Of a DNA stretch of 64,000 bases, positions 1 to 51,539 are shown piece by piece. The DNA lies in NCBI GenBank assembly GCA_041742965.1, contig JBGTNQ010000004.1:70241-134240 (forward strand). The letters run 5' to 3'. Source of the stretch: Minisyncoccia bacterium. GTDB taxonomy: Bacteria > Patescibacteriota > Minisyncoccia > Phycocordibacterales > Zambryskibacteraceae. The notes beneath the pieces are model-generated. The model was not told the DNA's origin, searched no databases, and worked only from the letters and a program-made list of their open reading frames with translations. The translations under genes were made by a program, and so were the position numbers. The stretch's first letter is position 1, and each line of letters begins with the position of its first letter.

Positions 1-151
1 AGGAGTTTTTCCACCTCCTGTCTTTATACATCTTTGTCCCTTCTGTCCACCACAAAACCAAGCCTAAAGTTTTTCTTAAATTATCATTCATCAAAAAATA
101 ATATCATTCACATGTTATATAGCCAGTGTAAGATTTCACAAGTCAAAAACT

Positions 152-180
152 TTGCTTTTTAGACCATAATCACATAATAT
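152..180 (+). promoter_or_regulatory. sigma70-like promoter for tRNA-Pro
   Basis: TTGCTT (152-157), 17-nt spacer, TAATAT (175-180), about 15 nt upstream of the tRNA 5' end. Confidence 0.35.
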
Positions 181-194
181 TACACTCAACTAAA

Positions 195-268
195 CGGGGC
201 GTAGTATATCGGTAGTATATATGTTTTGGGAACATAAGGGCCGGGTTCGATTCCCGGCGCCCCGACCA
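195..268 (+). tRNA. tRNA-Pro (anticodon TGG), CCA encoded
   Basis: Cloverleaf read by eye: acceptor CGGGGCG/CGCCCCG (C1:G72 as in bacterial tRNA-Pro), anticodon stem TATGT/ACATA with loop TTTGGGA, T-arm CCGGG-TTCGATT-CCCGG, discriminator A then CCA. Confidence 0.8.
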
Positions 269-285
269 TTAGTGGTCTTTTGTTA

Positions 286-672
286 TTAAAGGACATTCTC
301 AATATAAGTCACTTTCGCTCGCCTGCTATCTTCGCTAATCATTACAATCACCGCATCCACTTGTATATTTTCTTCATCAAGACCGTGTTCTAAACAATAA
401 GTCTCTATTGCCCTATACATCCTCTCTAACTTCTTTGGATGTATATTCTCCTCGGGCCTAATAGTTTCATATGTAACATTTTTACTCGTTTCATATGAAA
501 CAGAAGACTTAACTTCTATAAAATGAGTAACTTTCCCCTTCTTTACAATAAGATCTATTTCTCCCCAGGGACGAAGATAATTAGCCTCTAGAAACTCGAA
601 GCTATGTTTCATGAGAAACTTCTTAGCTATGTTTTCTCCGAAATCACCGAATTTTCTCTTTTCTGTCTTCAT
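286..672 (-). CDS. YraN/UPF0102 family endonuclease-like protein
   Basis: 128 aa; the GEIDLI...HFIEVK core is typical of the YraN (restriction-endonuclease-like fold) family. Confidence 0.6.
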   Translation of the reverse strand: MKTEKRKFGDFGENIAKKFLMKHSFEFLEANYLRPWGEIDLIVKKGKVTHFIEVKSSVSYETSKNVTYETIRPEENIHPKKLERMYRAIETYCLEHGLDEENIQVDAVIVMISEDSRRAKVTYIENVL

Positions 673-1074
673 TTCTGATAAAAAGATGAATATTTTGATT
701 AATTACAATGTTTCCCGTGTAACACACCTAAATTCAAATAAAGTGTTTCACGTGAAACATATTTAATATCATTTTTATTAAAATAAGGCTTAAATTAGCC
801 ATTTAACGGGCAAAACAAAGATATTACAAGGACAAGAAAAACATGTCTTTAACACAGCTTTCCACAAGGTTATCCACATTTTCGTTCATTTTTTTATAAT
901 TTATGGTCAAGTAAACTATAAAATTAGGGCTTTTTTACAAAAGATCCATTTTATTGCAAATGAACAAAAAGACTCTATAAGGACGTCTCAGTGACAATTG
1001 TACCAGAGAATTGAACTGCAGTTTACAGTAAAAACTTCATGAAAGATTGTCGAACACAAAATGGAGAATTTTGG

Positions 1075-1092
1075 TGCGGGTAGGGAGAATCG
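1075..1092. repeat. 18-nt direct duplicate of the tRNA-Gly 3' end (TGCGGGTAGGGAGAATCG)
   Basis: Identical to 1211-1228 (3' acceptor/T-stem strand of the minus-strand tRNA-Gly); lies 118 bp downstream of the tRNA. Confidence 0.8.
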
Positions 1093-1210
1093 GTCACAAC
1101 TACTAGCTCGTCGTCACTCGCCAATGTTGCGACCCCGCCTCGCGGTTTCGCCCACTGGCAAAACATCGCTCCGGCCTTCGATTCTCCACGCAAAATAAGA
1201 AGTTATTTTG
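1093..1210. repeat. tRNA-linked repeat, copy A (GC-rich core GCGACCCCGCCTCGCGGTTTCG)
   Basis: GC-rich insert between tRNA-Gly and its 3' duplicate; the core matches copies at 1391-1408, 46447-46465 and 51573-51596. Confidence 0.6.
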
Positions 1211-1281
1211 TGCGGGTAGGGAGAATCGAACTCCCGTATACTGCTTGGAAGGCAGTCATTCTACCACTAAACTATACCCGC
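1211..1281 (-). tRNA. tRNA-Gly (anticodon TCC)
   Basis: Reverse complement GCGGGTATAGTTTAGTGGTAGAATGACTGCCTTCCAAGCAGTATACGGGAGTTCGATTCTCCCTACCCGCA; anticodon stem ACTGC/GCAGT with loop CTTCCAA. Confidence 0.8.
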
Positions 1282-1384
1282 AAATGTTTATGTATTGTAT
1301 ATCACGTGATTGTGCAGTCAATTCAAATAAAATAAAGAGATTTATTAAATTGTGGTCAGGAGTATTTTTCTTGTCGCCACAAGA

Positions 1385-1448
1385 AAAATCTCACGACCCT
1401 GGCTCGCCATTTTTTCTACTGAAAAAATATGGCTCCGCCCTGCACAAA
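1385..1448. repeat. tRNA-linked repeat, copy D (core TCACGACCCTGGCTCGCC, 1391-1408)
   Basis: Downstream of tRNA-Arg(TCG) and its terminator; its reverse complement aligns with copy C (CGAGCC(A/G)GGGTCG(T/C)GAGATTTTTC). Confidence 0.5.
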
Positions 1449-1482
1449 CCCCAAAAAAGCAAAGAAATTTGCTTTTTTGGGG
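1449..1482. terminator. bidirectional intrinsic terminator after tRNA-Arg(TCG)
   Basis: Perfect 15-bp stem CCCCAAAAAAGCAAA/TTTGCTTTTTTGGGG with GAAA loop, U-runs on both sides. Confidence 0.6.
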
Positions 1483-1486
1483 TTTG

Positions 1487-1558
1487 TGCACCCGGAGGGA
1501 CTCGAACCCCCAACGACAGTTCCGAAGACTGTTGTGATATCCATTTCACTACGGGTGC
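1487..1558 (-). tRNA. tRNA-Arg (anticodon TCG)
   Basis: Reverse complement GCACCCGTAGTGAAATGGATATCACAACAGTCTTCGGAACTGTCGTTGGGGGTTCGAGTCCCTCCGGGTGCA; anticodon stem ACAGT/ACTGT with loop CTTCGGA. Confidence 0.75.
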
Positions 1559-1638
1559 AGTTGATACATCATACTGCTTTTCTCCCTTTATTCAAATTTT
1601 AAGCCATACATTATGAAAGAAAAGAGGGGAGTGATAGA

Positions 1639-3123
1639 ATGATATTCAAGATGAAAGACTTATTTCCCATACCAGAAACTGTTTCACGAGTAACAGAAAC
1701 CTTAGAAAAAGCGGGTTTTGAGGCATATCTCATAGGTGGATGTGTCCGTGACCTTTTTCTAGGTAAAACCCCAAAGGATTGGGATGTGACAACAAACGCC
1801 AAACCGGATGAAATAACAGGGTTGTTTCCAAAAACATTTTATGAAAATGAGTATGGGACAGTCGGGGTGGTAAACGAGGACGAAAAAGACCCAGCTTTAG
1901 AAATTGTTGAGGTAACCCCGTATCGCACAGAAAGTGAGTATAGCGACAGCCGAAGGCCAGATAGTGTATCCTTTGACGCCACCCTGGAAGACGACCTGAA
2001 GCGTAGGGATTTTACAATGAATGCCATAGCTTTAAACCTCTCAAAAAACAAGGTGGTGGATCCGTTTGGCGGGAGAGTAGACCTCCAAAAAGGGCTAATT
2101 AGGGCGGTGGGAGAGCCGAAAAAGCGTTTTAGTGAGGATGCGCTTAGAATGCTTCGGGCAATTAGACTTCACGCAGAACTTGGTTTTACTATAGAAGAAA
2201 AAACTAAAGAGGGAATAAAAGACAGTGCAGAGTTATTGAAAAAAATTGCAAAAGAAAGAATCAGGGATGAATTCATAAAAACCCTAATGTCGGAAAATCC
2301 AATGGAAGCCATCGCAGTGGCTCAAAATTTAGGTGTACTGGAGTTTGTGGTGCCTGAGCTACTAGATGCCATAGGCATAGAGCAAAATCAAGCTCATGCC
2401 TTTGATGTATGGACGCATCTTTTAAAATCCCTACAACATTCAGCGGATAAAAAATGGCCAATCCACATACGCTTAGCAGCTCTTTTCCATGATATTTCCA
2501 AACCAGAGACTCGTAGATGGTCAAAAGAGAAGGAAGAATGGACATTTTATGGCCACGAGGTTGTCGGTGCCAGAAAAACAGAGGCGATACTAAAAAATCT
2601 AAAATTTCCAAATGAACTTGTAACAACAGTAGTTAAACTCGTAAGGTGGCATATGTTTTTTTCCGACACTGAACAAATCACTCTTTCGGCAGTCAGGAGA
2701 CTAATATCAAATGTTGGTAAGGAAAATGTTTGGGACCTTATGAACCTACGAGTATGCGACCGTATAGGGACTGGAAGACCCAAAGAAAACCCATATCGCT
2801 TAAGAAAATACCAATCAATGGTGGAGGAGGCGATGAGAGACCCTGTTTCAGTAGGAATGCTAGCCATTGACGGCAAAGACATTATGGATATAGCCAAGAT
2901 ACCAGCAAGTCCCAAGATTGGCCAAATACTTCACGCACTTCTTGAAGAAGTTTTGGAAAACCCTGAGTTGAACAAAAAAGATATTTTATCCAAAAAAGCT
3001 ATAAAGCTGGCCATATTTTCAGAAGAAGAGCTAAAAGAAAGGGGGGATTCTGGGAAAGAAAAGAGGGAAGAGGAGGAGGAAAAGATACTCAAAACAATCA
3101 GAGGTAAGTACGGAGTTCAATAA
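1639..3123 (+). CDS. cca: CCA-adding tRNA nucleotidyltransferase (HD domain-containing)
   Basis: 494 aa; N-terminal GGCVRDLFLG...DWDVTT nucleotidyltransferase motif and HD-domain histidines; strong RBS AGAGGGGAG upstream. Confidence 0.85.
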   Translation: MIFKMKDLFPIPETVSRVTETLEKAGFEAYLIGGCVRDLFLGKTPKDWDVTTNAKPDEITGLFPKTFYENEYGTVGVVNEDEKDPALEIVEVTPYRTESEYSDSRRPDSVSFDATLEDDLKRRDFTMNAIALNLSKNKVVDPFGGRVDLQKGLIRAVGEPKKRFSEDALRMLRAIRLHAELGFTIEEKTKEGIKDSAELLKKIAKERIRDEFIKTLMSENPMEAIAVAQNLGVLEFVVPELLDAIGIEQNQAHAFDVWTHLLKSLQHSADKKWPIHIRLAALFHDISKPETRRWSKEKEEWTFYGHEVVGARKTEAILKNLKFPNELVTTVVKLVRWHMFFSDTEQITLSAVRRLISNVGKENVWDLMNLRVCDRIGTGRPKENPYRLRKYQSMVEEAMRDPVSVGMLAIDGKDIMDIAKIPASPKIGQILHALLEEVLENPELNKKDILSKKAIKLAIFSEEELKERGDSGKEKREEEEEKILKTIRGKYGVQ

Positions 3124-3470: not shown

Positions 3471-3784
3471 ACCCGCACACTAACTTTATTCAAAGATACT
3501 TTTACTTTCTTTTATTCTCTCCATTAACTGCCTTCTGGCCTGCCCACGCAATTTAAGCATAGATTCCCTATGACGCGCATCATTTTCCGCAGAATAAGCT
3601 TCATAATAAACGAGGCAATACGGCCTTTTGTTTTTTGTAGAAACTACAAGCCCGCTGTTATGTTCTATTAATCGCCTTTTTAAGTTATTAGTTGAACCTA
3701 TATACAACTCGTTAACCTTTCTTGCTTTCAATACATATACATAGAACATAACAAAATAAAGTTAGTGTGCGGGTCAAGGCTATT
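3471..3784. mobile_element. GIY-YIG mini-element: 87-aa GIY-YIG gene bounded by perfect 20-bp inverted repeats ACCCGCACACTAACTTTATT (3471-3490) / AATAAAGTTAGTGTGCGGGT (3765-3784)
   Basis: The IRs are exact reverse complements and overlap the stop codons of the GIY-YIG gene and of xth. Confidence 0.5.
3486..3749 (-). CDS. GIY-YIG nuclease family protein (standalone, YhbQ-like)
   Basis: 87 aa; MFYVYVLKARKVNELYIGSTNNLKRRLIEHN is a canonical GIY-YIG motif. Confidence 0.8.
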   Translation of the reverse strand: MFYVYVLKARKVNELYIGSTNNLKRRLIEHNSGLVVSTKNKRPYCLVYYEAYSAENDARHRESMLKLRGQARRQLMERIKESKSIFE

Positions 3785-4541
3785 CAATTATAATCTCCAA
3801 AGGACAGTGGTCGGATCCGAAAACAGAGCTTAAAATATTGGCTTTTTTGAGCTTAGGGAGCATTTCTTTACTTATAAAAAAGTAGTCTATTCTCCAACCA
3901 ACATTCCTGTCTCTAGCAAATGTTTTCATATCCCAATATGTATATGCTTCTTTTTTTTCTGGGAAAAGGTGCCGAAAGGTGTCTATATATCCCTTATCAA
4001 CAACCTTATCAATCCAAGCTCTTTCCTCTGGCAAGAACCCAGTATTGGTCTCATTTTCTTTTGGTCTAGCTAGATCCATTTCCTGATGGGCAGTATTCAC
4101 ATCTCCACAAAATATAACTGGTTTATGTTTGCGTAGCTTTTCAATGAATTTTAAAAAATCGTCGTAAAACTTAAGTTTATAAGCCAGGCGCTCTGGTCCA
4201 CCGCCACCGTTAGGGAAATAGACATTTAATAGAAAAAAATTTTCAAACTCCAAACCCACGATTCTACCTTCTGGGTCTTTTTCTTTACCAATTCCATAAA
4301 AAACATCTAGTGGTTTCTCTTTTGTATAAATAGCTGTTCCGCTGTAGCCCTTTTTTACCTCTGAGTGATTGAAATATGAATAATAGCCTGCAGGGTTACG
4401 GACCTCCTCGGGCAACTGATCAGGATGTGCCTTGGTCTCTTGAATACAAAAGATATCTGAGCTGTCATTTACCAGCCACTCAAAGTGACCCTTTTTGTGC
4501 ACTGCTCGCAAGCCATTAACATTCCAACTGATGATACGCAT
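3780..4541 (-). CDS. xth: exodeoxyribonuclease III
   Basis: 253 aa; MRIISWNVNGLRA N-terminus and a C-terminal SDHCP motif typical of the ExoIII/APE family. Confidence 0.9.
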   Translation of the reverse strand: MRIISWNVNGLRAVHKKGHFEWLVNDSSDIFCIQETKAHPDQLPEEVRNPAGYYSYFNHSEVKKGYSGTAIYTKEKPLDVFYGIGKEKDPEGRIVGLEFENFFLLNVYFPNGGGGPERLAYKLKFYDDFLKFIEKLRKHKPVIFCGDVNTAHQEMDLARPKENETNTGFLPEERAWIDKVVDKGYIDTFRHLFPEKKEAYTYWDMKTFARDRNVGWRIDYFFISKEMLPKLKKANILSSVFGSDHCPLEIIIE

Positions 4542-4638
4542 TCCTATAGCTTATAGTCTTTGCTTATTGGATGCCAGCTACCGAAGCAAACAAAAAAACG
4601 CCCCTCGACAAGCTCAGGGCGTTTTTGAGAGAACCCTC

Positions 4639-4989
4639 TCAGGGGGCGGGAATCGAGGGGTTATAAGGAAGATACTTCCGGCCAATTGAGAACTCTTTCG
4701 TCTCAGCACTTGAATCAACCTCAGACAACAGGGAGACGAAAAACATTCTGAACCTACCACCCCGAGATGCGGGGACTCTTGGTTCGGTCTCCACTCGACA
4801 CCACCAAAAGTTGTGACCATCCTTGAGCATCCTCTCTTGGTGTGGAGTAAGTGAGTTCCGAAGAACAAGCAGGGTCTCACCATCTTCATCGTGGCACTTT
4901 GCTTGCCACTGCGTTTTGTTTGGGTGACTATGATTCACCCCGACCTCGAACTTCAGGGCGATGGTCATGCCTTTGTATACAATCGGCAT
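4639..4989 (-). CDS. hypothetical protein in a locally GC-elevated segment
   Basis: 116-aa ORF with no recognisable motifs; surrounding sequence (about 4560-4990) is visibly GC-richer than its neighbours. Confidence 0.3.
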   Translation of the reverse strand: MPIVYKGMTIALKFEVGVNHSHPNKTQWQAKCHDEDGETLLVLRNSLTPHQERMLKDGHNFWWCRVETEPRVPASRGGRFRMFFVSLLSEVDSSAETKEFSIGRKYLPYNPSIPAP

Positions 4990-5064
4990 AAATTAACTCC
5001 TCTGTATAGATGAACTGTCTCTACATAGAGACTCTCACGAAGAGACTATTTGTCAACCCGCACA

Positions 5065-5982
5065 CTAATTTCTCTTATTGTGAAATCTTTTGTGAACATC
5101 TTTCAAATGCCTGTCAGTGACATGCGTATAAATCTGAGTAGTAGCAATATTGGCGTGGCCTAAAAGCATTTGAACGGAGCGTAAATCGGCTCCATTTTGC
5201 AAAAGATCGGTGGCGAAGCTGTGACGAATAACATGTGGTGTAACTTTTTTTGAAATACCAGCCTTTATTGCGTATTTTGCCACCAATCGCTCAATCGAGC
5301 GTGGGGTGAGGCGCTTTTCTCCCTCTTGGTTTTTATTTTTGCCGAGATTTACAAACATCGGGTCATCCATATCTGTGCGTTTTGCCAAATATTCCCTAAT
5401 CGCTTCCTTGGCTTCTTCTGATAAAAATACAACCCTCACCTTGTCTCCTTTTCCTCGCACAGAAAATTCATCGCGAGAGAGGTCTAGCTCTCGGGATAGA
5501 GAACAGAGCTCTGAAACACGAAGTCCTGTCGAGAAAAAAAGTTCTAAAATAGCCCTATCTCTAAGACCCTGAATGGCTGTTGTATCTGGGGCCTTCATAA
5601 TACGAGAAAGTTCTTCAGAGGTAATGAGGTCCAGAGATCGCTCAGGCACTTTAGCAAGCTCAATTCTGTCTGGGGGAAGAGAGTCTATATTTCTTTTTGC
5701 CAAATATTTGAGAAAAGCGCGTAAAGCAATGAGATAGTAATTCTGAGTTCTTTTTTTTATGGTTTCTTTTCGTCCACCAATAAAAGCTCCTGACTCTTTA
5801 CGATTAAGCCATAGACGATACTCGCGAATACGGTCGTCGGTAATATCTTTTGGGTCAGTGAGCTCTGTATTATTGAGAAAAGTAGTGAGATATCTGTCGT
5901 AATTCTCAATTGTTTTGAGACTTCGCCCACGAGAAACCTCCATATCTTCTAAAAATTGACGTTTAAGTTCAGGAAGTTTCAT
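5065..5982 (-). CDS. xerC: tyrosine recombinase XerC/XerD family
   Basis: 305 aa; N-terminal core-binding domain and C-terminal HVIRHSFAT...LLGH...TQIYTH catalytic motifs (R..HxxR..Y). Confidence 0.8.
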   Translation of the reverse strand: MKLPELKRQFLEDMEVSRGRSLKTIENYDRYLTTFLNNTELTDPKDITDDRIREYRLWLNRKESGAFIGGRKETIKKRTQNYYLIALRAFLKYLAKRNIDSLPPDRIELAKVPERSLDLITSEELSRIMKAPDTTAIQGLRDRAILELFFSTGLRVSELCSLSRELDLSRDEFSVRGKGDKVRVVFLSEEAKEAIREYLAKRTDMDDPMFVNLGKNKNQEGEKRLTPRSIERLVAKYAIKAGISKKVTPHVIRHSFATDLLQNGADLRSVQMLLGHANIATTQIYTHVTDRHLKDVHKRFHNKRN

Positions 5983-21633: not shown

Positions 21634-22037
21634 AGTTTTAAGTTTTTAGTAAATGCAAGAACAAAGATCAAAATCTTACAAAGATTTGGTGGTTTGGAAA
21701 AAATCTTGTGATTTGGTTATTTTGATTTATAAACTATGTTCTAATTTCCCGAAAGAAGAGTTGTACGGCATTACATCTCAAATAAAAAGATCAGCGATTT
21801 CTATTCCATCCAATATTGCAGAAGGGAGTAGGCGAGGAACCAAAAAAGATTTTCATCACTTTTTGAACATCTCACTCGGATCTGCCGCTGAATTGGAGAC
21901 TCAGATTGAAATATCTAAAAAATTATCATTTGGAGAAAAAAGAGACTATAATGAAACGGAATCAATATTATTAGAGGTGACAAAAATGCTGTATAAACTG
22001 TCATCAACTCTAAACTGACTACTAAAAACTTAAAACT
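21634..22037. mobile_element. four-helix-bundle gene cassette bounded by a 17-bp perfect inverted repeat AGTTTTAAGTTTTTAGT (21634-21650) / ACTAAAAACTTAAAACT (22021-22037)
   Basis: IRs are exact reverse complements; adjacent tandem AGTTTTAAGTTT(A) units extend the stem imperfectly to about 30 bp. Confidence 0.55.
21653..22018 (+). CDS. four-helix-bundle protein (23S rRNA intervening-sequence protein family)
   Basis: 121 aa; YKDLVVWKKS...FPKEELYGITSQIKRSAISIPSNIAEGS...FLNISLGSAAELETQ matches the TIGR02436-type family. Confidence 0.7.
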   Translation: MQEQRSKSYKDLVVWKKSCDLVILIYKLCSNFPKEELYGITSQIKRSAISIPSNIAEGSRRGTKKDFHHFLNISLGSAAELETQIEISKKLSFGEKRDYNETESILLEVTKMLYKLSSTLN

Positions 22038-22579: not shown

Positions 22580-23218
22580 ATGGCTATAAAAGCGAGGGCT
22601 ACACAGGAGTTTGTACCAATCCAAGAAGTTCGTGACGGTGTCGTAGTGATGAAAGATGGCAGTATGCGAGCCATTATCATAGCTTCGTCCCTTAACTTTT
22701 CTCTAAAATCAGAGGATGAAAAAACCGCTGTTCTTCTACAGTTTCAGGATTTTCTAAATTCTTTAGATTTTCCGATACAGATTTTTGTTGAATCCAGACG
22801 ACTAGACATTAGACCTTATCTGGCACTACTTGAAGAACAGAAAAAAATACAGACGAATGACCTCATGAAAATACAGGTTGAGGAGTATATAGGTTTTGTT
22901 AGAACCTTTACTGAAAATAACAATATAATGACAAAAAGTTTCTTTGTGGTTATACCTTACTCACCAGCAATGCTTCAGGGGAAAACGGGGTCATTGAGTA
23001 GTCTGTTAGGAAAGAAAAATACTTCTAATGAGAGAGAATCTGTGGGCCTTCTCTTTGAAGAAAATCGAACTCAGTTAGAGCAAAGATTGTCTGTAGTAGA
23101 ACAAGGTCTCATGAGGTGTGGAGTTCGTGTCCAGAGATTAGGAAACGATGAAGTTATTGAGCTTTTCTATAAATTATTTAATCCGGGAGAAACAGAAAGA
23201 CCGATTGTTCAGGAGTAA
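22580..23218 (+). CDS. VirB4/TrsE-like N-terminal domain protein (encoded as a separate gene)
   Basis: 212 aa; QEFVPIQEVRDGVVVMKDGSMRAIIIASSLNFSLKSEDEK resembles the VirB4 N-domain. Confidence 0.5.
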   Translation: MAIKARATQEFVPIQEVRDGVVVMKDGSMRAIIIASSLNFSLKSEDEKTAVLLQFQDFLNSLDFPIQIFVESRRLDIRPYLALLEEQKKIQTNDLMKIQVEEYIGFVRTFTENNNIMTKSFFVVIPYSPAMLQGKTGSLSSLLGKKNTSNERESVGLLFEENRTQLEQRLSVVEQGLMRCGVRVQRLGNDEVIELFYKLFNPGETERPIVQE

Positions 23219-23228
23219 TTTCACAAAA

Positions 23229-25049
23229 ATGTCTATCTTTAATTTTTTAAAAGGGAAAAAAGGGGTGGCCGAAGAGGCGCAGGGAGTTTCTATCCTTCCC
23301 CATGAAATATACGAAGCGAATACCTTAGATTTAAAGGATATTATTGCCCCCAGTGCCCTAAAAGTTAGCCCGAAAGACCTAAATCTCGGAGAAAAAATAG
23401 TCAGAAGCTTTTTTGTCATTTCTTATCCAAGGTTTTTGGCAGAAAGCTGGTTTGCCCCAATCATAAACTTAGATAGAGTTTTTGATATTTCCATCTTTGT
23501 CCATCCGGTTGAAACTTCTCGCGTCTTAAAACAATTCCAAAAGAAAGTAGCTGAAGTTCAAAGTCAAATACACGAAAGAGAAGCCAAGGGGTTGGTAAGA
23601 GATCCAATGCTTGATGTTGCATATCAAGACCTTGAAAATCTCCGAGACAACCTACAGCAGGCTCAAGAAAAGCTATTTGATGTTGGTCTATATATATCTA
23701 TATACGCTGACAGTGTAGGAGAACTAGATAAAATAGAGTCAGAGATAAAATCTATTCTTGAATCAAAACTTGTATATATAAAGCCGGCCCTTTTCCAACA
23801 AGAAGAAGGCTTCAGAAGTATAGTGCCTCTAGGAACAGATTTGCTAGAAGTTCACTCAAAACTGAATTCTTCTCCGCTATCAAGTTTGTTCCCATTTATC
23901 TCTTTTGACCTAACCCAAGAAAAGGGAATCCTCTATGGTATCAACAGACACAACTCAAGCCTTGTGCTCTTTGACCGCTTTTCACTTGAAAACTACAACT
24001 CCATAACCTTTGCAAAATCTGGGTCTGGGAAATCATATGCCACAAAATTAGAGATACTGAGAACCCTTATGTTTGATACTGACGTTATGGTTATTGACCC
24101 AGAACAAGAGTATGAATATATGTCTGAGGCGGTGGGAGGAAGGTCTCTGAAAATTTCTCTAAATTCTGAGCATCACATAAACCCGTTTGAACTTCCAATT
24201 CCCGGAGAAGATGAATCTGCTGCCAATGTGCTTCGTTCAAATATCATAAACCTCGTTGGTCTATTTAGATTAATGTTGGGAGGACTTACATCCGAAGAAG
24301 ACGCCATCATAGACAGGGCAATCACCGAGACATATGCCCTGAAAGACATCACCGCTGAATCAGATTTTAAAAATATCGAGCCCCCACTGCTTTCTGACTT
24401 TGAGCTTGTTCTCTCTGGACTTGAGGGAGGAGAATCCTTGGCTCAGAGACTAACAAAATACACCAGAGGCACTTGGGCAGGGTTCATAAACAGGCCTACA
24501 AATATAGACATAAATAAAAAATTTGTAGTCTTCTCTTTGCGTGATATGGAGGATGAACTCAAGCCGATTGCCATGTATATTGTCACGCACTATATATGGA
24601 GTGCCATAAGAAAAGAGAAGAAGAAAAGACTTTTGGTCATAGATGAAGCTTGGTGGATGATGAAGTCTGAAGACACGGCTTCTTTCCTGCTAAACCTCGC
24701 TAAGCGAGGTAGGAAATATGGTCTAGGACTTGCTACTATCACTCAAGATGTGGATGACTTTCTTAAGTCTCCATATGGAACACCTATTATCACGAACTCT
24801 TCGATACAAATTCTTCTAAAACAGTCCCCGACAACCATTGATAAACTTCAACAGGTCTTTAATCTGACAGACGAGGAGAAATATCTACTATTAGAATCTG
24901 GAGTGGGAGAAGGAATATTTTTTGCAGGACTCAAACATGTGGCAATCAAAATAGAAGCATCGTACACGGAAGACCAGATTATTACATCAGACCCATTTCA
25001 AATTCTGGCTATTCAGAAAGCCAAGAAAGAATTAAGTGACTCTACATAA
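23229..25049 (+). CDS. VirB4/TraE-like T4SS ATPase (C-terminal ATPase part)
   Basis: Own start MSIFNF preceded by AGGAG; Walker A AKSGSGKS, Walker B LLVIDEAWWMM; ORF track extends upstream to 23148 in this frame. Confidence 0.7.
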   Translation: MSIFNFLKGKKGVAEEAQGVSILPHEIYEANTLDLKDIIAPSALKVSPKDLNLGEKIVRSFFVISYPRFLAESWFAPIINLDRVFDISIFVHPVETSRVLKQFQKKVAEVQSQIHEREAKGLVRDPMLDVAYQDLENLRDNLQQAQEKLFDVGLYISIYADSVGELDKIESEIKSILESKLVYIKPALFQQEEGFRSIVPLGTDLLEVHSKLNSSPLSSLFPFISFDLTQEKGILYGINRHNSSLVLFDRFSLENYNSITFAKSGSGKSYATKLEILRTLMFDTDVMVIDPEQEYEYMSEAVGGRSLKISLNSEHHINPFELPIPGEDESAANVLRSNIINLVGLFRLMLGGLTSEEDAIIDRAITETYALKDITAESDFKNIEPPLLSDFELVLSGLEGGESLAQRLTKYTRGTWAGFINRPTNIDINKKFVVFSLRDMEDELKPIAMYIVTHYIWSAIRKEKKKRLLVIDEAWWMMKSEDTASFLLNLAKRGRKYGLGLATITQDVDDFLKSPYGTPIITNSSIQILLKQSPTTIDKLQQVFNLTDEEKYLLLESGVGEGIFFAGLKHVAIKIEASYTEDQIITSDPFQILAIQKAKKELSDST

Positions 25050-46180: not shown

Positions 46181-46282
46181 ATCTAGTTTGTTTGTTGTCC
46201 TGAATACAGTAATATCGACAAACACAACCATTTTCGCTATAGTTTCCTGCAGTTTTCGATTTAGTTTTTAGATAAATGATAT

Positions 46283-46355
46283 GCGCCCATAGCTCAGTTG
46301 GTAGAGCACCTGCCTTTTAAGCAGAGGGTCGTAGGTTCAATTCCTACTGGGCGCA
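46283..46355 (+). tRNA. tRNA-Lys (anticodon TTT)
   Basis: GCGCCCATAGCTCAGTTGGTAGAGCACCTGCCTTTTAAGCAGAGGGTCGTAGGTTCAATTCCTACTGGGCGCA; anticodon loop CTTTTAA. Confidence 0.85.
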
Positions 46356-46368
46356 CAAAGCGTGAAGA

Positions 46369-46393
46369 AAATCTCCCCTGCGGGAGATTTTTA
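46369..46393 (+). terminator. intrinsic terminator after tRNA-Lys
   Basis: AAAATCTCCC-CTGC-GGGAGATTTT: perfect 10-bp stem with A/T flanks. Confidence 0.7.
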
Positions 46394-46475
46394 GCTTTTG
46401 CGAGGCGCAGTGATGTTTTTGTTTGAGCGAAGCTCAAGGCAAAAACCACGAGCCGGGGTCGCGAGATTTTTCCGT
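46394..46475. repeat. tRNA-linked repeat, copy C (core CACGAGCCGGGGTCGCGAG, 46447-46465)
   Basis: Its reverse complement aligns over about 100 nt with copy B (51540-51668), including the terminator-proximal part. Confidence 0.6.
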
Positions 46476-46564
46476 TAGGAAAAATACTTGTGACCACACT
46501 TCGACTCGTTTCTCCGAAACTCGCTCAGTGTAAACAGTGTGGACCAGAGTTACGTTACTCACAC

Positions 46565-46969
46565 TTAAAGAGGAAGGTCAAAGGCGAAAAATCCCGCTCC
46601 AGAGAAAAGAAGTGAAAGGGCAATCACAAACATTACCGTGTAGAACACAATGTCACGCTTCATTAGGGTCGCCTCTCTTTTTTCTATAAAAAACTCAATT
46701 CCAAAGAGGATAACAAATACCAGAGCTGCGATTTGTGTATAGAATCCCGCTATAAGAGCGATACCGCCAACTATTTCTACTGAAGCAAGGATTTTAGTAG
46801 CCAGAGATTTTTCTTTGACATGAAGCATTTCAAAGATAATTTCCCATCTAGATTTTTCTGATTTGAATTTTAGATACCCGAGATTTACTAGTATAAAACC
46901 CAAGGTTACTCGCAGTATAAATGGGGCGAGAAGGGAATATGTTAAAAGCTCTGGAAATGGATTAAGCAT
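46565..46969 (-). CDS. DoxX family membrane protein
   Basis: 134 aa; 4 TM helices; DoxX-like pattern. Confidence 0.5.
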   Translation of the reverse strand: MLNPFPELLTYSLLAPFILRVTLGFILVNLGYLKFKSEKSRWEIIFEMLHVKEKSLATKILASVEIVGGIALIAGFYTQIAALVFVILFGIEFFIEKREATLMKRDIVFYTVMFVIALSLLFSGAGFFAFDLPL

Positions 46970-47174
46970 CTCGTTAGAAGCAGGTCGCGATCAAAATGAT
47001 CTGCCTTAAACTATTCGAGTAATCGATTGTTTTCATATTGTAAATACATTCTCAGCAAGAAACCGTGACTGCAGCTTCTAACGGAAAGCATGGGAAAAGA
47101 ATAGCATATGAATAACGAATAATGAATATGGAATAAGACCCATTCTATATTCGCCATTCGACATTCAGGCCACC

Positions 47175-47663
47175 TTGCTATATATTCAAAAAATGAAGAA
47201 AGATATTCAACTCATTCTCCACGATATTCGTAGCGCCCAGAATGTGGGGTCGATTTTTCGGACCGCAGACGCTTGTGGCGTATCCAAAATTTATCTTACT
47301 GGATATACCCCGGCGCCATTGGATAGATTTAATAGACCTGTAAAAGAGATTGCCAAAACAGCACTTGGGGCGGAGAAAAATATTCTCTGGGAGAAGGTCA
47401 CAATCGGAAAGTGCTTAGAAAAACTGAAAAGTGATGGGTTTTATATTATTGCCCTTGAGCAAAATAAAAAATCAGTTGATTACAAAAAAATAAAACCCAA
47501 ATCCAAAACAGCCATCTTGGTGGGCAATGAAGTGCTCGGTATTTCGGAGGCGGTACTTAAGCGGGTGGATATAATTGGGGAGATACCAATGAAAGGGAAA
47601 AAAGAATCTCTCAATGTTTCTGTTGCTCTGGGGGTAGCCCTGTTTCGGATTCTTGATCTTTAG
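47175..47663 (+). CDS. SpoU/TrmH family RNA 2'-O-methyltransferase
   Basis: 162 aa; HDIRSAQNVGSIFRTADACG, LVGNEVLGIS and NVSVALGVAL (SPOUT) motifs. Confidence 0.7.
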   Translation: MLYIQKMKKDIQLILHDIRSAQNVGSIFRTADACGVSKIYLTGYTPAPLDRFNRPVKEIAKTALGAEKNILWEKVTIGKCLEKLKSDGFYIIALEQNKKSVDYKKIKPKSKTAILVGNEVLGISEAVLKRVDIIGEIPMKGKKESLNVSVALGVALFRILDL

Positions 47664-48207
47664 ACCCAAGGAATTTTTTTATATATTTTTTTGCCCAGAT
47701 TTCAAAAAACAAGACGATACCAAAAAAGACCAAGAACACAATTTCACCCCTGAATACATATAGCCTTAATTCTTCTGCGGAGACATCAAGGGTAAATGCC
47801 AGTCCAGATATCAGCATAAGCCATATGGCTGATCCCAATATATTTATATTTATAAATGTTCGAAATGGTAAACCTTCCATGCCGTAAAGCACTCTTACCG
47901 GCACACGGATGCCGTATAGAAATTTTGATAAAAAAAGTATTTTGTCAGCTTTTTGGCGAAAAGAGATAAAAAACTCAGGGTTTTTTTGTTGCAGTTTGTC
48001 TATTTTGAAAAAACGATATACTGATCCTTTTCCAAAAATTTTTCCTGTCCAATACCACATTGTGTCTGCGACTGTGCTTCCTAGAAACCCCACAAGAAGA
48101 ACGCTTGGTAAGGACAGTGAATTTGTAACAGCAAAGTAAATCAGGGGCACCAACATAATGTCCCCGAGGAGGACAATGCCGATGAAAAATAAAAAATATT
48201 CAATCAT
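47611..48207 (-). CDS. DedA/SNARE-associated family membrane protein
   Basis: Start taken at MIEYF just after the mutM stop; GSTVADTMWYWTGKIFGK motif. Confidence 0.5.
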   Translation of the reverse strand: MIEYFLFFIGIVLLGDIMLVPLIYFAVTNSLSLPSVLLVGFLGSTVADTMWYWTGKIFGKGSVYRFFKIDKLQQKNPEFFISFRQKADKILFLSKFLYGIRVPVRVLYGMEGLPFRTFININILGSAIWLMLISGLAFTLDVSAEELRLYVFRGEIVFLVFFGIVLFFEIWAKKYIKKFLGSKDQESETGLPPEQQKH

Positions 48208-49112
48208 AGAAAAATTTGGTGTGTGGGGCAGTAGTGGGCACTCCGTCCACCGACGACCGTCCTCTCTATAGTACCCCCGCAACCTTTCTTTGGACAAGGT
48301 TTGCCCTTTTGTCTATACGCCTTGTGGTGGTATTGAAATTCACCTCTTAGGCCGTCTATATTTCTATAGTCTGACATTGAGTCGCCACCGAAATCGATGC
48401 CTTTATAGAGCAGTAGTTTGGTATTTTTCCATAGAGTTTTCATTTTGGATTCGGATATGTTGGAAACGATTGTGAGCGGATGGATATTTGAAGCCCAAAG
48501 GATTTCATCAGAGTAGATGTTTCCTATTCCAGCTACGAGCGTCTGGTCCAAGAGCGCTTGTTTGATTTTCGCTCTCGGCCTTTTCCGGAGTCTTGCAGAA
48601 AAAATTTTAGCCGAAAAGCTTTTTGTCAGAGGTTCCGGCCCTAGATGTGAAATTTCAGGACTGCTCCTTATTTCTTCTGATGGTATTAAGGTTACTTTGG
48701 CAAATTTTCTCATATCTGAGAGGACCAAATGTTTTTTGTTAGAAAGAGAAAAGACCAATCTTATGTGTTGGTTGAATGGGTCTTCTAATGCTTTGTTTGA
48801 GCTGTCTGAAATCCACTTTGAACCCGATTTTTTATATTTTCCATACAAAACATGCCCAGTCATTTTCATGTGAATCAAAATACTCTCTCCATTTGATAGA
48901 TGAATGATAATGTTTTTTCCTCGTCTTTCTGCTTTTAGTATTTTTGCTTCGACGACACTCCTTTTGAATTTTTTAAAGAATGCTGGATTTTTTATTTGAT
49001 TTTTATTGTGTTTTGTCGATTTGTAATTTGTCCACACATCAACAATGGAGAGATTTTTAACTCTCTTGTTTATACCGTTTACAGTTGTTTGCACCTCTGG
49101 AAGTTCAGGCAT
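48204..49112 (-). CDS. mutM: formamidopyrimidine-DNA glycosylase (Fpg/Nei family)
   Basis: 302 aa; MPELPEV N-terminus; C-terminal zinc finger CPKKGCGG...CPTHQ. Confidence 0.85.
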   Translation of the reverse strand: MPELPEVQTTVNGINKRVKNLSIVDVWTNYKSTKHNKNQIKNPAFFKKFKRSVVEAKILKAERRGKNIIIHLSNGESILIHMKMTGHVLYGKYKKSGSKWISDSSNKALEDPFNQHIRLVFSLSNKKHLVLSDMRKFAKVTLIPSEEIRSSPEISHLGPEPLTKSFSAKIFSARLRKRPRAKIKQALLDQTLVAGIGNIYSDEILWASNIHPLTIVSNISESKMKTLWKNTKLLLYKGIDFGGDSMSDYRNIDGLRGEFQYHHKAYRQKGKPCPKKGCGGTIERTVVGGRSAHYCPTHQIFL

Positions 49113-49130
49113 ACAAACAGCTTATAGCTT

Positions 49131-50420
49131 TTAGCTTTTAGGTGCTAGCCTCCTTTCAATCTCCTCACGCATCACACCTGCGTCGTCCCAGGGGATTTTT
49201 TTGCCACCCGTGATACACATATATTGTTGAGAGCCCATGCCTGTGGCTAAGATAACATCACCGTCTTTTGCATTCCTTATAGCCTCGCGCATTGCTTCTC
49301 TTCTGTCCACGACCACTTTCGGTGTGTGTTTTTTGATACCTTCTTTCATATCTTCAATTATTTTCATTGGGTCCTCGTCATAGGGGTCCTCTGTTGTGAG
49401 GATTATCTCGTCACAGTGCGTGTCAGCCACTTCGGCCATACCTGCTCTTTTCCAAGTGTCTCTGCCTCCTCCGGTATTTCCTAACACACAAATTTTTCTT
49501 TGATTAGGAAATGTTCTATAGAGTGCTTCAAGTGATTCTATGGTGTGAGCATAGTCGACTATGGCAGTAAATTTCTGCTTGTCGTGAAGCGGGTGATTTT
49601 GAGGGAGGGTAATATGTTCCACTCTACCTCTAATAGAAGAAAGTTTGGAAAACGCCCTTACAATGACTGGGGTTTCTATGCCGAAACTTTGCGCGAAGGC
49701 ACAGGCCTCAAGGGCGTTTATGATATTAAATTCTCCTTTGAGGGGCGAATGTATTGTTGCTCCGTTAAATGAAAAAGTTATTCCATTGTTGTCGGAAGTC
49801 CAAGGTTCTCCATCTTTGAGACTCACCTTTATAACCCCCGTGGCTTTTTTGGGTATAAAATTTGAAAAGTTTTTATCATCCGCATTTACCACAGCAACTT
49901 TTCTCTTTTTAGGAGAGTCGCTAAGTAGTTTGGCTATTCTTTTTTTGTGAGCAAGATATTTTTCAAATGAGCCGTGTGATTCAATGTGTTCTGGTGCTAA
50001 GTTTGTAAATATCAAAGCATCTAAAAAAACAAATTTATGTCTAAACTGTTTTGCCCCTTCGGATGTCATCTCAAGTATTACCCAGTCGCATCCCTTTTTT
50101 ACAGCTTTCCTTATAAAAGATTGAATAAATGCACGCCCAGGCATACTCATACCATAGGGGTTCAGTTTTGACTCATCTGCGATTTTAAAACGAAGCGAAC
50201 CACCGAGGGCTGTTTTTTGCCCAGCTTCTTCGAGGATAGCATTTACCATTTCTGATGTGCTTGTTTTTCCTTTGGTTCCAGTAATGGCCACCACGCGAAT
50301 GTTTCGTGAAGGTAGTCCATATATCAATGCTCCTACTATAGCTAAAAGAAAGTGATATATCGGTTGTCCGGCTCGATATAATTTCTTTGGAATTATTTTT
50401 TCTATTTTTCTAAGAATCAT
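49131..50420 (-). CDS. Mur ligase family protein (MurE-like)
   Basis: 429 aa; ATP-binding AITGTKGKTST and Mur ligase middle/C-terminal domains; exact specificity not determinable. Confidence 0.55.
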   Translation of the reverse strand: MILRKIEKIIPKKLYRAGQPIYHFLLAIVGALIYGLPSRNIRVVAITGTKGKTSTSEMVNAILEEAGQKTALGGSLRFKIADESKLNPYGMSMPGRAFIQSFIRKAVKKGCDWVILEMTSEGAKQFRHKFVFLDALIFTNLAPEHIESHGSFEKYLAHKKRIAKLLSDSPKKRKVAVVNADDKNFSNFIPKKATGVIKVSLKDGEPWTSDNNGITFSFNGATIHSPLKGEFNIINALEACAFAQSFGIETPVIVRAFSKLSSIRGRVEHITLPQNHPLHDKQKFTAIVDYAHTIESLEALYRTFPNQRKICVLGNTGGGRDTWKRAGMAEVADTHCDEIILTTEDPYDEDPMKIIEDMKEGIKKHTPKVVVDRREAMREAIRNAKDGDVILATGMGSQQYMCITGGKKIPWDDAGVMREEIERRLAPKS

Positions 50421-50993: not shown

Positions 50994-51141
50994 AAGGATA
51001 TAATACCAGAATAGCGGATAGTATGTAGCATGCGGAATATGTATATATAAACCCGTTTTCCTAATCGGCTAATTCGCACGAATTAGCCGATTAGGAAAAG
51101 AAACCTTGCGTGTTTGTGAGGTTTAAGCTAGTATACGCCTC

Positions 51142-51405: not shown

Positions 51406-51406
51406 C

Positions 51407-51437
51407 AAAACCCCCGCCTAGGCGGGGGTTTTGTTTT
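51407..51437. terminator. intrinsic terminator after rpsT
   Basis: AAAACCCCCGCC-TA-GGCGGGGGTTTTGTTTT. Confidence 0.8.
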
Positions 51438-51539
51438 AGCACTGGGAGTCTTTTTCTTCAATCTTTTTGTGGCCACAAATATTTTACTCCGCTCAAATTG
51501 TGCTTCCAGTAGGAACCTTTCCCTACGGGAACAGTAGAC

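What the first reader, a model, noticed from the sequence alone, without database searches (positions are those of the whole stretch)
1075..1281. tRNA-Gly followed 118 bp downstream by an exact 18-nt copy of its own 3' end with a foreign GC-rich insert between them
tRNA 3' halves duplicated as direct repeats are the classic attL/attR signature of integrase-mediated insertion into tRNA genes. Here the repeats are only about 120 bp apart and enclose copy A of the tRNA-linked repeat. This is consistent with a decayed or miniature integrative element, or a recombination scar left by one.
Basis: seen in the sequence. Interest (0 to 1): 0.55.

Follow-up and report, generated by a model that had tools for sequence, protein, structure and literature searches.

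The report
Tiny structured insert copying tRNA end
The repeated tRNA-Gly 3' end is real: it marks the two edges of a roughly 135-bp gene-less, strongly folded insert, one member of a large and apparently undescribed family that sits behind tRNA, tmRNA and a few other genes across Patescibacteria and always ends in a copy of the host gene's 3' end.

Summary
Observation confirmed. tRNA-Gly(UCC) lies on the minus strand (1281..1211). Its last 18-19 nt recur exactly at 1092..1075, 118 nt downstream, where 0 matches are expected by chance.

The repeat does bound an insertion: a 77%-identity relative has the empty site, and an 88% relative has a truncated copy. It is not a decayed integrase island.

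The insert is an intact member of a family with at least 119 loci in Patescibacteria and no Rfam match. Five copies lie in this window.
- The fold is a three-way junction specific to the tRNA strand. 96% of cells are paired, against 77% after shuffling, with 561 compensatory cells.
- The closing helix pairs an internal anti-target strand with the duplicated host segment, which starts at T-loop C56.
- Members lie 11-82 nt behind a same-strand tRNA in 22 of 22 independent hits. Others follow tmRNA, lie in tandem, or sit inside the 3' end of a topA-like gene. There the copy upstream of the element is a diverged replacement that appears imported.
- No ORF or recombinase is associated.

Best reading (about 0.5): a non-autonomous, structured integrative element that supplies a replacement 3' end. 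Its mobilising enzyme is unknown. The main rival (about 0.25) is a host-selected RNA module attached to tRNA transcripts.

The parts
1211..1281 (-). tRNA-Gly(UCC), complete; no encoded CCA (followed by CAAAA)
   Evidence: ARAGORN; Rfam tRNA 74 bits
1294..1321 (-). promoter-like TTGACT-16-TACAAT upstream of tRNA-Gly. No promoter-like site was found between the tRNA and the insert, so the insert would be transcribed by read-through.
   Evidence: consensus match only
1211..1228 (-). repeat copy 1 (X): tRNA positions 56-73, the 3' part of the functional tRNA. Inferred to have arrived with the element.
   Evidence: inference by analogy with the topA loci
1191..1210 (-). A/U trailer hairpin CAAAAUAACUUCUUAUUUUG. 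It occupies the position of the terminator-like CUGC-loop hairpin seen in other family members.
   Evidence: not scored as a terminator
1179..1192 (-). anti-target strand: UGCG (pairs with CGCA of copy 2), then U, then GGAGAAUCG (pairs with CGAUUCUCC, tRNA positions 56-64, of copy 2). This is the 5' strand of closing helix P1.
   Evidence: MFE fold; CM alignment; family P1 statistics
1137..1175 (-). P2: GCC[GGA]GCG-AU-GUUUUGCC-AGUG-GGCGAAAC-CGC[GA]GGC, with conserved internal loops
1093..1133 (-). P3: GGUCGC...GUUGUGAC, containing a G.U wobble that is invariant in the family. It ends directly against copy 2 (GUGAC|C).
   Evidence: col 84/141 is G.U in 110/111
1075..1092 (-). repeat copy 2 (X'): the displaced 3' end of the tRNA and the 3' strand of P1
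1072..1074 (-). encoded CCA after copy 2. An encoded CCA is also present in the empty-site relative L124, so this is read as the ancestral state.
1057..1073 (-). second A/U hairpin CAAAAUUCUCCAUUUUG, the partner of hairpin 1191-1210 in the 38-nt extended repeat
   Evidence: (D2)
993..1005 (-). flank motif TGGTACAATTGTC, shared with L120 and L124; it anchors the orthology of the locus
1343..1486 (-). family copy D behind tRNA-Arg(UCG): perfect 23-bp hairpin (1445-1486) plus a short-form core (1343-1452)
   Evidence: CM 92.0 bits; (I1)
46356..46506 (+). family copy C behind tRNA-Lys(UUU): CUGC-loop terminator-like hairpin plus a short-form core
   Evidence: CM 86.8 bits
51460..51668 (-). family copy B behind tRNA-Arg(GCG): short form with an 89-nt insert in the P3 loop. 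That insert holds a near-copy of the tRNA 3' end at 51500-51515.
   Evidence: CM 69.4 bits
58112..58272 (-). 'type-2' element behind tRNA-Arg(UCU): a different core (..GAG..GUAC-hairpin-UGUAAG..) with the same architecture and an exact 18-nt terminal copy GAUUCCUCGCGAGGGCAC (58112-58129)

Best explanation
The two 18-nt copies are the edges of a roughly 135-bp ORF-less insertion, window 1093-1228 or equivalently 1075-1210. It belongs to a large Patescibacteria family of non-autonomous, structured integrative elements.

The family layout is: host gene ...X-tail (copy 1) | hairpin | anti-X strand | conserved three-way-junction core ending in GUGAC | X'-tail (copy 2) | host flank.

The element enters the 3' end of a conserved, highly expressed gene (tRNA, tmRNA, occasionally a protein gene) and brings its own replacement 3' end (copy 1), so the host gene stays intact. 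The original 3' end (copy 2, here still carrying its CCA and ancestral flank) is displaced to the far side.

The element's anti-X strand pairs with the displaced copy. That closes the core fold and, in full-length 'long forms', makes a tRNA-shaped module (acceptor-like stem, hairpin, extended T-stem). The window copy is a long form that has lost the acceptor-5'/CUGC-hairpin segment.

Shown here:
- the repeat, the fold and its covariation;
- the strict co-orientation behind tRNAs;
- occupancy differences between relatives;
- tandem and truncated copies;
- an apparently imported copy 1 at the topA loci;
- absence of any associated ORF.

Inferred:
- it is transcribed by read-through from the tRNA promoter and folds as RNA;
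- the tRNA-like closure lets RNase P and RNase Z trim it without harming the tRNA;
- insertion and excision occur by recombination at the left edge of X, with anti-X acting as a target-matching strand;
- the enzyme acts in trans and is unidentified;
- the direct repeats also allow precise loss or tandem amplification by host recombination.
For: Repeat: exact, with 0 expected by chance.

Fold: on the tRNA strand -57.5 kcal/mol, z = -4.4; on the opposite strand z = -0.6.

Family size: the 20-nt core pattern hit at least 119 loci, about 116 of them genuine family members (3 look like chance hits), nearly all Patescibacteria MAGs. By my own estimate about 4 hits are expected by chance. There were none in viral contigs.

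Covariation on 111 members:
- 96.4% of cells paired, against 76.9% after shuffling and 34-43% with partners slid;
- 561 double-change cells against 167;
- covariation score 0.522 against 0.164, reached by 0 of 500 shuffles.
G.U alternates with G-C and A-U in P3, and one G.U is invariant (110/111), which marks the tRNA-sense strand as the folded one.

Association with host genes:
- 76 of 116 members have a same-strand tRNA just upstream;
- 22 of 22 CM hits in an independent contig set lie 11-82 nt behind a same-strand tRNA;
- others follow tmRNA or another element.

Closing helix: P1 is longer than partner-shuffled controls, with 21 members at 7 bp or more against about 4 expected. Its 5' strand tracks the T-loop variants: CGAUU with AAUCG, CGAGU with ACUCG, CGAAU with AUUCG.

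This locus:
- empty site in L124, truncated copy in L120;
- the same element, with an identical 5' strand, behind tRNA-Gly(GCC) in L124, whose 3' end is identical to the one here.

Other turnover: at tRNA-Pro(UGG) and tRNA-Arg(UCG) the window and L120 differ in occupant.

topA loci:
- both copies of the last roughly 25 codons keep their frame;
- within a genome they differ at 8-11 synonymous against 1-4 nonsynonymous codons out of 18;
- between the close relatives L074 and L090, copy 1 is 91% identical but copy 2 only 76%.
Copy 2 is therefore decaying, and copy 1 diverged while functional elsewhere.

No ORF lies in the insert and no recurrent recombinase, RT or transposase lies near the 119 loci.

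A full long form folds as an acceptor-like stem, a hairpin and a T-like stem carrying the junction core: -74.2 kcal/mol, z = -8.1.
Against: - No mobilising enzyme was found, and no excised or circular form was observed.
- The four type-1 copies in this window are strongly diverged from each other, yet all keep the fold through compensatory changes. That looks like purifying selection on every copy rather than a recent burst.
- The element behind tRNA-Arg(GCG) sits in the same S20/RuvA/Mur-ligase synteny in at least 12 species, which suggests long vertical persistence.
- An element that carries a fixed replacement 3' end cannot easily hop to a different tRNA species, yet at least 15 tRNA species are occupied.
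- Precise loss by recombination between the repeats would also produce 'empty' sites, so the direction of events at this locus is inferred rather than shown.
Confidence: 0.5

Rival explanations
1. Host-selected RNA module. The element is a cis-encoded structured RNA appended to tRNA or tmRNA transcription units and inherited vertically with sporadic loss. X (in the tRNA), anti-X and X' would form a three-strand switch or decoy. It could insulate tRNA folding in read-through transcripts, offer an RNase P/Z entry site, or regulate 3' maturation, with the conserved core binding a protein or ligand.
For: - All four diverged paralogues in the window retain the fold.
- Covariation is strong and strand-specific.
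- 22 of 22 hits lie immediately behind same-strand tRNAs.
- The position behind tRNA-Arg(GCG) is conserved in at least 12 species.
- In silico, the tRNA 5' acceptor strand can mispair with the distal copy unless P1 forms.
- In short forms, anti-X is complementary to 5 nt of the real tRNA end but to only 3 nt of the copy.
Against: - The topA loci duplicate about 25 codons, far more than any pairing needs, and the upstream copy appears imported.
- A truncated copy is tolerated in L120.
- About 85% of tRNA-Gly genes with the identical 3' half have no downstream copy.
- Different core types occupy the same scaffold at the same tRNA.
- Occupants differ between genomes only 12% apart in a housekeeping enzyme.
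Confidence: 0.25
2. Classical integrase scar. On this reading the copies are attL/attR left by a phage or island that integrated into the T-loop region through a tyrosine integrase and then lost almost all of its DNA.
For: - Exact direct repeat from the T-loop to the 3' end.
- Empty site in a relative.
- tRNA, tmRNA and gene 3' ends are classical integrase targets (my own knowledge).
- Tandem arrays occur.
- A real recombinase-bearing element sits at tRNA-His in this same window.
Against: - Independent decay would not converge on the same roughly 110-nt covarying core in at least 119 loci.
- No integrase remnant lies in the insert or nearby.
- The Xer-like gene at 5065-5982 is syntenic in relatives that lack the insert.
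- The anti-X strand covaries with the target, which a protein-read att site does not require.
Confidence: 0.1
3. Guide-bearing catalytic RNA. The three-way-junction core would be a small ribozyme, or the scaffold of a guide RNA. Anti-X would play the part of an internal guide sequence that aligns both junctions. The 5' end of X and the 3' end ..GUGAC abut like a nick in the coaxial P3-P1 stack, so the element could cut, circularise or reverse-splice itself at the edge of X.
For: - Zero unpaired nucleotides lie between P3 and P1.
- An invariant G.U and invariant junction residues (the GGG linker, the CGAG and GAUGUUU tracts) go beyond what pairing alone needs.
- The same guide can pair with either copy.
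- Two unrelated cores share the same junction geometry.
- No protein partner was found.
Against: - No similarity to any ribozyme or intron in Rfam 15, even at E up to 10 or up to 1.
- The core is small.
- The host gene does not need splicing.
- There is no RNA-level evidence at all.
Confidence: 0.1
4. Chance repeat, or the remnant of a tandem tRNA-Gly duplication.
For: The distal copy looks like the 3' end of a second tRNA-Gly gene.
Against: - 0 matches expected by chance.
- The sequence between the copies is a family-wide core that is also found behind other tRNAs, tmRNA and topA.
Confidence: 0.02

Closest known systems
Integrative elements (phages, ICEs, genomic islands) that target the T-loop region of tRNA/tmRNA genes with a tyrosine integrase
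   Same: - Direct repeat running from the T-loop to the 3' end.
- The host gene is kept intact by a replacement 3' end carried on the element.
- Targets are tRNA, tmRNA and the 3' ends of protein genes.
- Occupancy varies between relatives and tandem arrays occur.
   Different: - Only 100-250 nt long, with no integrase or any other ORF.
- Conserved single-strand fold with covariation.
- An internal strand complementary to the target.
- Many diverged copies per genome.
Non-autonomous derivatives of mobile elements (CIMEs, MITEs, REPINs, IS200/IS605-derived PATEs)
   Same: Short, ORF-less, multicopy and hairpin-rich. They must rely on functions supplied in trans.
   Different: - No terminal inverted repeats.
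- The duplicated segment runs from X to the end of the gene (3-6, 18-25 or about 75 nt), not a fixed short target-site duplication.
- Copies within one genome are highly diverged.
- Strict orientation behind stable-RNA genes.
Group I / group II introns (internal guide or exon-binding sequences)
   Same: A structured core, a strand that base-pairs with flanking host sequence and covaries with it, and frequent residence in tRNA genes.
   Different: - No Rfam intron match.
- The core is about 100 nt.
- The host tRNA is complete without splicing.
- The paired host segment lies 3' of the junction and is duplicated.
TnpB/IscB omega-RNAs (OMEGA systems)
   Same: A conserved scaffold followed directly by about 18-21 nt identical to the flanking target.
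   Different: No nuclease gene lies nearby. The 'guide' is base-paired in cis with an anti-strand. The intact tRNA copy would itself be a target.
tRNA-like structures (tmRNA tRNA-like domain, mascRNA, viral TLS, bacterial YrlA)
   Same: Acceptor-like and T-stem-like helices ending in N-CCA, which could recruit RNase P, RNase Z or the CCA-adding enzyme.
   Different: The T-loop is replaced by a three-way junction. The sequences copy the neighbouring tRNA rather than following a general consensus. No Rfam match.

Membership tests
tRNA-targeting tyrosine-integrase integrative element (attL/attR) | Direct repeat of the tRNA 3' segment (T-loop to 3' end) flanking the insert | tested here: met
   18-19 nt exact at 1211-1228 and 1075-1092; 0 expected by chance
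tRNA-targeting tyrosine-integrase integrative element (attL/attR) | Integrase gene (or its remnant) inside the element next to an att site | tested here: not met
   Only spurious ORFs of 56 aa or less overlap 1023-1198. No recurrent recombinase family turned up among the 119 family loci. The Xer-like gene at 5065-5982 is syntenic in relatives without the insert.
tRNA-targeting tyrosine-integrase integrative element (attL/attR) | Occupancy varies among related genomes (empty sites exist) | tested here: met
   L124 empty, L120 truncated, L125 none
tRNA-targeting tyrosine-integrase integrative element (attL/attR) | Element carries a replacement 3' end derived from another lineage | tested here: inconclusive
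   Met at the topA loci of the family. At this locus the two copies are identical, so their origin cannot be read; only the CCA and flank argue that copy 2 is ancestral.
MITE / DDE-transposon derivative | Terminal inverted repeats at the element ends | tested here: not met
   No TIR at the boundaries. The only inverted pairing is the internal anti-X strand against the copy.
MITE / DDE-transposon derivative | Short target-site duplication of fixed length | tested here: not met
   The duplicated segment is 18-19 nt here, 3-6 nt in short forms and about 75 nt at topA
MITE / DDE-transposon derivative | Several near-identical copies per genome | tested here: not met
   BLAST of the locus against the window finds only 20-22-nt core matches to the other copies
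Group I intron | Conserved catalytic core recognised by the Rfam intron models | tested here: not met
   No intron hit at E up to 10 on 1-3000 or E up to 1 on 46200-58500
Group I intron | Interrupts a gene that needs splicing to function | tested here: not met
   The tRNA upstream of the insert is complete (74 bits)
IS200/IS605 PATE or TnpB omega-RNA | TnpA/TnpB encoded in or near the element | tested here: not met
   None among the clustered ORFs of the 119 loci. By eye, none among the 60 ORFs of the window (only 13 were checked with Pfam).
IS200/IS605 PATE or TnpB omega-RNA | Scaffold followed by a free guide derived from the flank | tested here: inconclusive
   GUGAC| is followed by 18-21 nt of target sequence, but that stretch is paired in cis with anti-X
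Any Rfam 15 family | Match to a covariance model | tested here: not met
   Only tRNAs reach gathering score in the whole window. Nothing overlaps the five elements at E up to 1-10.
tRNA-like structure (acceptor/T-arm mimic) | Acceptor-like and T-stem-like helices ending in N-CCA | tested here: met
   Full long form in L147: 8-bp acceptor-like stem, hairpin and 8-bp T-like stem, z = -8.1. The window copy has 4 + 8 bp and an encoded CCA.
tRNA-like structure (acceptor/T-arm mimic) | T-loop/elbow consensus | tested here: not met
   Positions 54-55 are replaced by the three-way-junction core
tRNA-like structure (acceptor/T-arm mimic) | Processing by RNase P, RNase Z or the CCA-adding enzyme | not testable with these tools
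   Needs enzymology or RNA end mapping

The most novel reading that the evidence does not exclude
The conserved three-way-junction core is the active part of a new class of ORF-less, nucleic-acid-guided mobile element. Its anti-target strand would act as a programmable guide that aligns both junctions at the edge of X. The element would insert and excise either by its own catalysis (a small ribozyme, possibly through a circular RNA) or as the guide-RNA cassette of an unidentified trans-acting enzyme, using tRNA/tmRNA 3' ends as safe, highly transcribed landing sites.
Probability: 0.2. Interest if true: 0.9.

Novelty: new variant of a known kind. Interest (0 to 1): 0.72.

Why it matters
If the best reading holds, Patescibacteria genomes of about 1 Mb carry many copies of a gene-less element; half of the ten tRNA genes in this window have one. 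The element behaves like an integrative island, with a replacement 3' end, a displaced original end, and tRNA/tmRNA targets. Yet it consists only of a roughly 110-nt folded core and a target-matching strand.

That would be a minimal form of site-specific integration, and it raises the question of what moves it.

Three further consequences follow:
- it would explain why the element-bearing tRNA genes here lack an encoded CCA while the unoccupied ones keep it;
- it adds an apparently unrecorded, strongly covarying RNA structure family to a phylum with few known RNAs;
- it warns annotators that partial tRNA 3' ends in these genomes are not pseudogenes.

If the host-function rival holds instead, this would be a new kind of cis module attached to tRNA transcripts.

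Tried and rejected
- **Rfam:** gathering mode on the whole window, plus E-value mode on 1-3000, 4450-5150 and 46200-58500. Only tRNAs reach threshold and nothing overlaps the elements.
- **LOOT RNA (RF03000):** it lies next to tmRNA plus element in L026 and L018 but is a different motif.
- **Viral contigs:** 0 hits for the core pattern.
- **Exact-protein lookups** of the window's CCA-adding enzyme, to find near-identical strains: not on record.
- **ORF clustering** around the 119 loci, looking for an integrase, RT or transposase: only housekeeping synteny groups came out.
- **LAGLIDADG guess:** I guessed that the two extra ORFs in L120 were LAGLIDADG homing endonucleases. Pfam did not support this, giving only weak HTH hits.
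- **By-eye mapping** of the junction onto hammerhead, HDV-like, kink-turn and purine-riboswitch consensus did not fit. These are my own comparisons, not tool tests.
- **CCA asymmetry:** I asked whether copy 1 consistently lacks and copy 2 consistently keeps CCA. Across loci the pattern is mixed, so it is not a rule.
- **Literature:** seven successful full-text searches on Patescibacteria tRNA-linked RNAs or miniature tRNA-targeting elements found nothing relevant. One further query was rejected for syntax.
- **tRNA-His:** no second copy of its 3' end lies in the window.

Full report
**1. The observation**

tRNA-Gly(UCC) is on the minus strand, at 1281..1211 (ARAGORN; Rfam 74 bits). Read on that strand, its last 18 nt are CGAUUCUCCCUACCCGCA, which is positions 56-73. 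They recur exactly 118 nt downstream at 1092..1075.
- The 18-mer occurs twice in the window, with 0 expected even when 2 mismatches are allowed.
- BLAST gives 19 identical nt.
- Weaker similarity (38 nt at 79%) extends into a small A/U hairpin after each copy.
- The distal copy is followed by CCA; the tRNA gene itself is not.
- The intervening core is 60% G+C in a 39.8% window.

**2. Anatomy of the insert**

On the tRNA strand, the segment 1196..1072 folds at -57.5 kcal/mol (z = -4.4). The opposite strand does not (z = -0.6). The fold has four parts.
- An A/U hairpin (1210..1191).
- A closing helix P1, in which UGCG-U-GGAGAAUCG (1192..1179) pairs with the distal copy.
- Two hairpins, P2 (1175..1137) and P3 (1133..1093), in a three-way junction.
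- P3 ends in ..GUUGUGAC directly against the first base (C56) of the distal copy.

A promoter-like site precedes the tRNA and none separates tRNA from insert.

**3. The insert belongs to a family**

The same core follows three other tRNAs in this window: Arg-UCG, Lys-UUU and Arg-GCG. Nearly all are Patescibacteria MAGs, including Paceibacterota, Saccharibacteria and Nomurabacteria. By my estimate about 4 hits are expected by chance, and three hits do look like chance. None occur in viral contigs.

An alignment of 111 members gives a 27-pair consensus.
- 96.4% of cells are paired, against 76.9% after shuffling and 34-43% with partners slid.
- There are 561 double-change cells against 167.
- The covariation score is 0.522 against 0.164, reached by 0 of 500 shuffles.
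- One G.U in P3 is invariant (110/111). Its neighbour alternates between G.U, G-C and A-U.

So the tRNA-sense strand is the one that folds. A covariance model scores the window copies at 92.7, 92.0, 86.8 and 69.4 bits. No Rfam 15 family matches any of them.

**4. Where members sit**

- 76 of 116 real loci have a same-strand tRNA of any isotype just upstream.
- In an independent contig set fetched through a tRNA-Gly pattern, 22 of 22 model hits lie 11-82 nt behind a same-strand tRNA.
- Among the remaining loci, some follow tmRNA.
- Others follow another element, in tandem.
- Five sit inside the 3' end of a topA-like ORF.

**5. The general layout**

host ...X-tail (copy 1) | hairpin, often with a CUGC loop and a U-tract | anti-X | core ..GUGAC | X'-tail (copy 2).

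In 'long forms' X starts at T-loop C56. Anti-X follows the T-loop variants (CGAUU with AAUCG, CGAGU with ACUCG, CGAAU with AUUCG). P1 reaches 7-12 bp in 21 members, against about 4 expected when partners are shuffled. In the commoner 'short forms' X is only the last 3 nt of the tRNA plus the A-rich trailer.

Full long forms also carry the complement of the acceptor 3' strand and a CAAACUGCUUUG hairpin. The RNA then folds as an acceptor-like stem, a hairpin and an extended T-like stem holding the junction core (L147: -74.2 kcal/mol, z = -8.1). The window copy, like its L120 homologue, lacks that segment (UGCG|UGGAGAAUCG) and is a deletion derivative.

The same scaffold behind tRNA-Gly genes with the identical 3' half carries different cores in different metagenome contigs: type 1, a diverged type 1b, a 'type 2', minimal versions and a bare minihelix. 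Type 2 (..GAG..GUAC-hairpin-UGUAAG..) also occurs in this window behind tRNA-Arg(UCU), with an exact 18-nt terminal copy.

**6. This locus in relatives**

I recovered synteny through homologues of the adjacent CCA-adding enzyme.
- L124 (77% identity): tRNA-Gly(UCC) with encoded CCA runs into the shared flank motif TGGTACAATTGTC. This is an empty site.
- L120 (88%): it keeps the hairpin and the first roughly 30 nt of the element, then jumps to the flank and has no distal copy.
- L125: it has neither.
- In L124 the same element, with an identical 5' strand, follows tRNA-Gly(GCC), whose 3' end is identical to the one here.
- The window and L120 also differ at two other tRNAs. At tRNA-Pro(UGG), L120 has a type-2 element and the window is empty with CCA. 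At tRNA-Arg(UCG), L120 has type 2 and the window has type 1.

About 85% of tRNA-Gly genes with this exact 3' half have no downstream copy.

**7. Direction of events**

In the window, copy 2 keeps the CCA and the ancestral flank, so I take it to be the displaced original end. This is inference: precise deletion between the repeats would regenerate the same 'empty' site.

The topA loci are more informative.
- Both copies of the last roughly 25 codons keep their frame.
- Within a genome they are only 57-76% identical, with 8-11 synonymous against 1-4 nonsynonymous codon differences out of 18.
- Between the close relatives L074 and L090, copy 1 is 91% identical but copy 2 only 76%.

Copy 2 is therefore under relaxed constraint. 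Most of the divergence between copy 1 and copy 2 built up while both were functional in different lineages. So copy 1 arrived with the element.

**8. Mechanism**

My best reading, at about 0.5, is a non-autonomous structured integrative element that supplies a replacement 3' end. It would be transcribed by read-through, and its anti-target strand would sequester the displaced copy.
- Insertion and excision at the edge of X, and trimming by RNase P/Z, are inferred.
- The enzyme is unknown.
- The direct repeats also explain precise loss and tandem amplification; L154 has two identical 134-nt units.

Two points argue against this reading and for a host-selected RNA module (about 0.25). Every diverged paralogue keeps the fold. 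The position behind tRNA-Arg(GCG) is conserved in at least 12 species.

The other readings score lower.
- A classical integrase scar (about 0.1) fails on the absent integrase and on the conserved core.
- A guide-bearing ribozyme (about 0.1) fits the geometry: no unpaired bases between P3 and P1, invariant junction residues, and two unrelated cores sharing one architecture. It has no direct support.

**9. Comparison and novelty**

The element works most like a T-loop-targeting integrative element, but it fails that family's defining integrase test. It also fails the MITE, intron, omega-RNA and Rfam membership tests (see the membership table). Seven successful literature searches found no description of it.

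I rate it a new variant of a known kind. There is about a 0.2 chance that it is a categorically new guided or catalytic element.

**10. Caveats**

- All of the evidence is comparative.
- The loci come from MAGs, and a few are labelled as non-Patescibacteria, which may reflect mis-binning.
- The covariance model's E-values are rough.
- No RNA or excision data exist.

Noticed in passing
window 60104-61735 (-), next to tRNA-His 60086-60160 (+): Large serine recombinase ORF (Pfam Resolvase + Recombinase + Zn_ribbon_recom) whose 3' end overlaps the tRNA-His gene. It is followed by a 453-aa ORF (61805-63166) with no Pfam hit. This may be an integrated element that runs off the window. No second copy of the tRNA-His 3' end lies in the window.
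   Followed up: partly
window 58112-58272 (-): A second core type ('type 2') behind tRNA-Arg(UCU), with an exact 18-nt terminal copy of that tRNA's 3' end. At least 13 distinct further type-2 loci behind various tRNAs were found among the fetched loci, including two identical tandem units in L154.
   Followed up: partly
window tRNA genes: The three tRNAs with an encoded CCA (Pro, Val, His) have no element. All five with an element (Gly, Arg x3, Lys) lack CCA and end ..N73-C-AAA. Ser and Leu also lack CCA and have A-rich trailers, but I recognised no element behind them.
   Followed up: partly
window 3486-3749 (-) and 51746-52027 (-): Two small stand-alone GIY-YIG nuclease-domain ORFs of 87 and 93 aa. 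The second ends 6 nt upstream of tRNA-Arg(GCG). GIY-YIG ORFs were not recurrent near the 119 family loci.
   Followed up: partly
window 4542-5064: About 520 bp lie between the Exo_endo_phos gene and the Xer-like recombinase gene; L124 and L125 have a gap of only about 20 nt there. The stretch holds a 116-aa ORF (4639-4989, minus strand) with its own terminator and no Pfam or Rfam match. L120 has a 113-aa ORF in the same place.
   Followed up: partly
L120 1334-1999 and 2257-2940 (-): Two paralogous ORFs of 221 and 227 aa flank tRNA-Arg(UCG) in the 88% relative and are absent from the window. Pfam gives only weak HTH hits, and my LAGLIDADG guess was not supported.
   Followed up: partly
L026 2057-2175 (-), L018 6513-6628 (+): LOOT RNA (RF03000). 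In L026 it lies just downstream of a tmRNA gene plus type-1 element; L018 also carries one on the same contig.
   Followed up: no
L029, L063, L074, L079, L090: A type-1 element lies inside the 3' end of a topA-like gene, with its last roughly 25 codons duplicated in frame on both sides.
   Followed up: yes
window 21653-22018 (+) and 16-29 kb: An ORF for a 23S_rRNA_IVP / bAvd-like four-helix-bundle protein, next to a block of large membrane or secreted proteins that includes a TraG/VirB4-like ATPase (23148-25049).
   Followed up: no
L020, L039, L042, L094, L108 (upstream of their type-1 elements): These elements follow sequences that are neither tRNA nor tmRNA and that Rfam does not name. They may be other stable RNA genes.
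   Followed up: no
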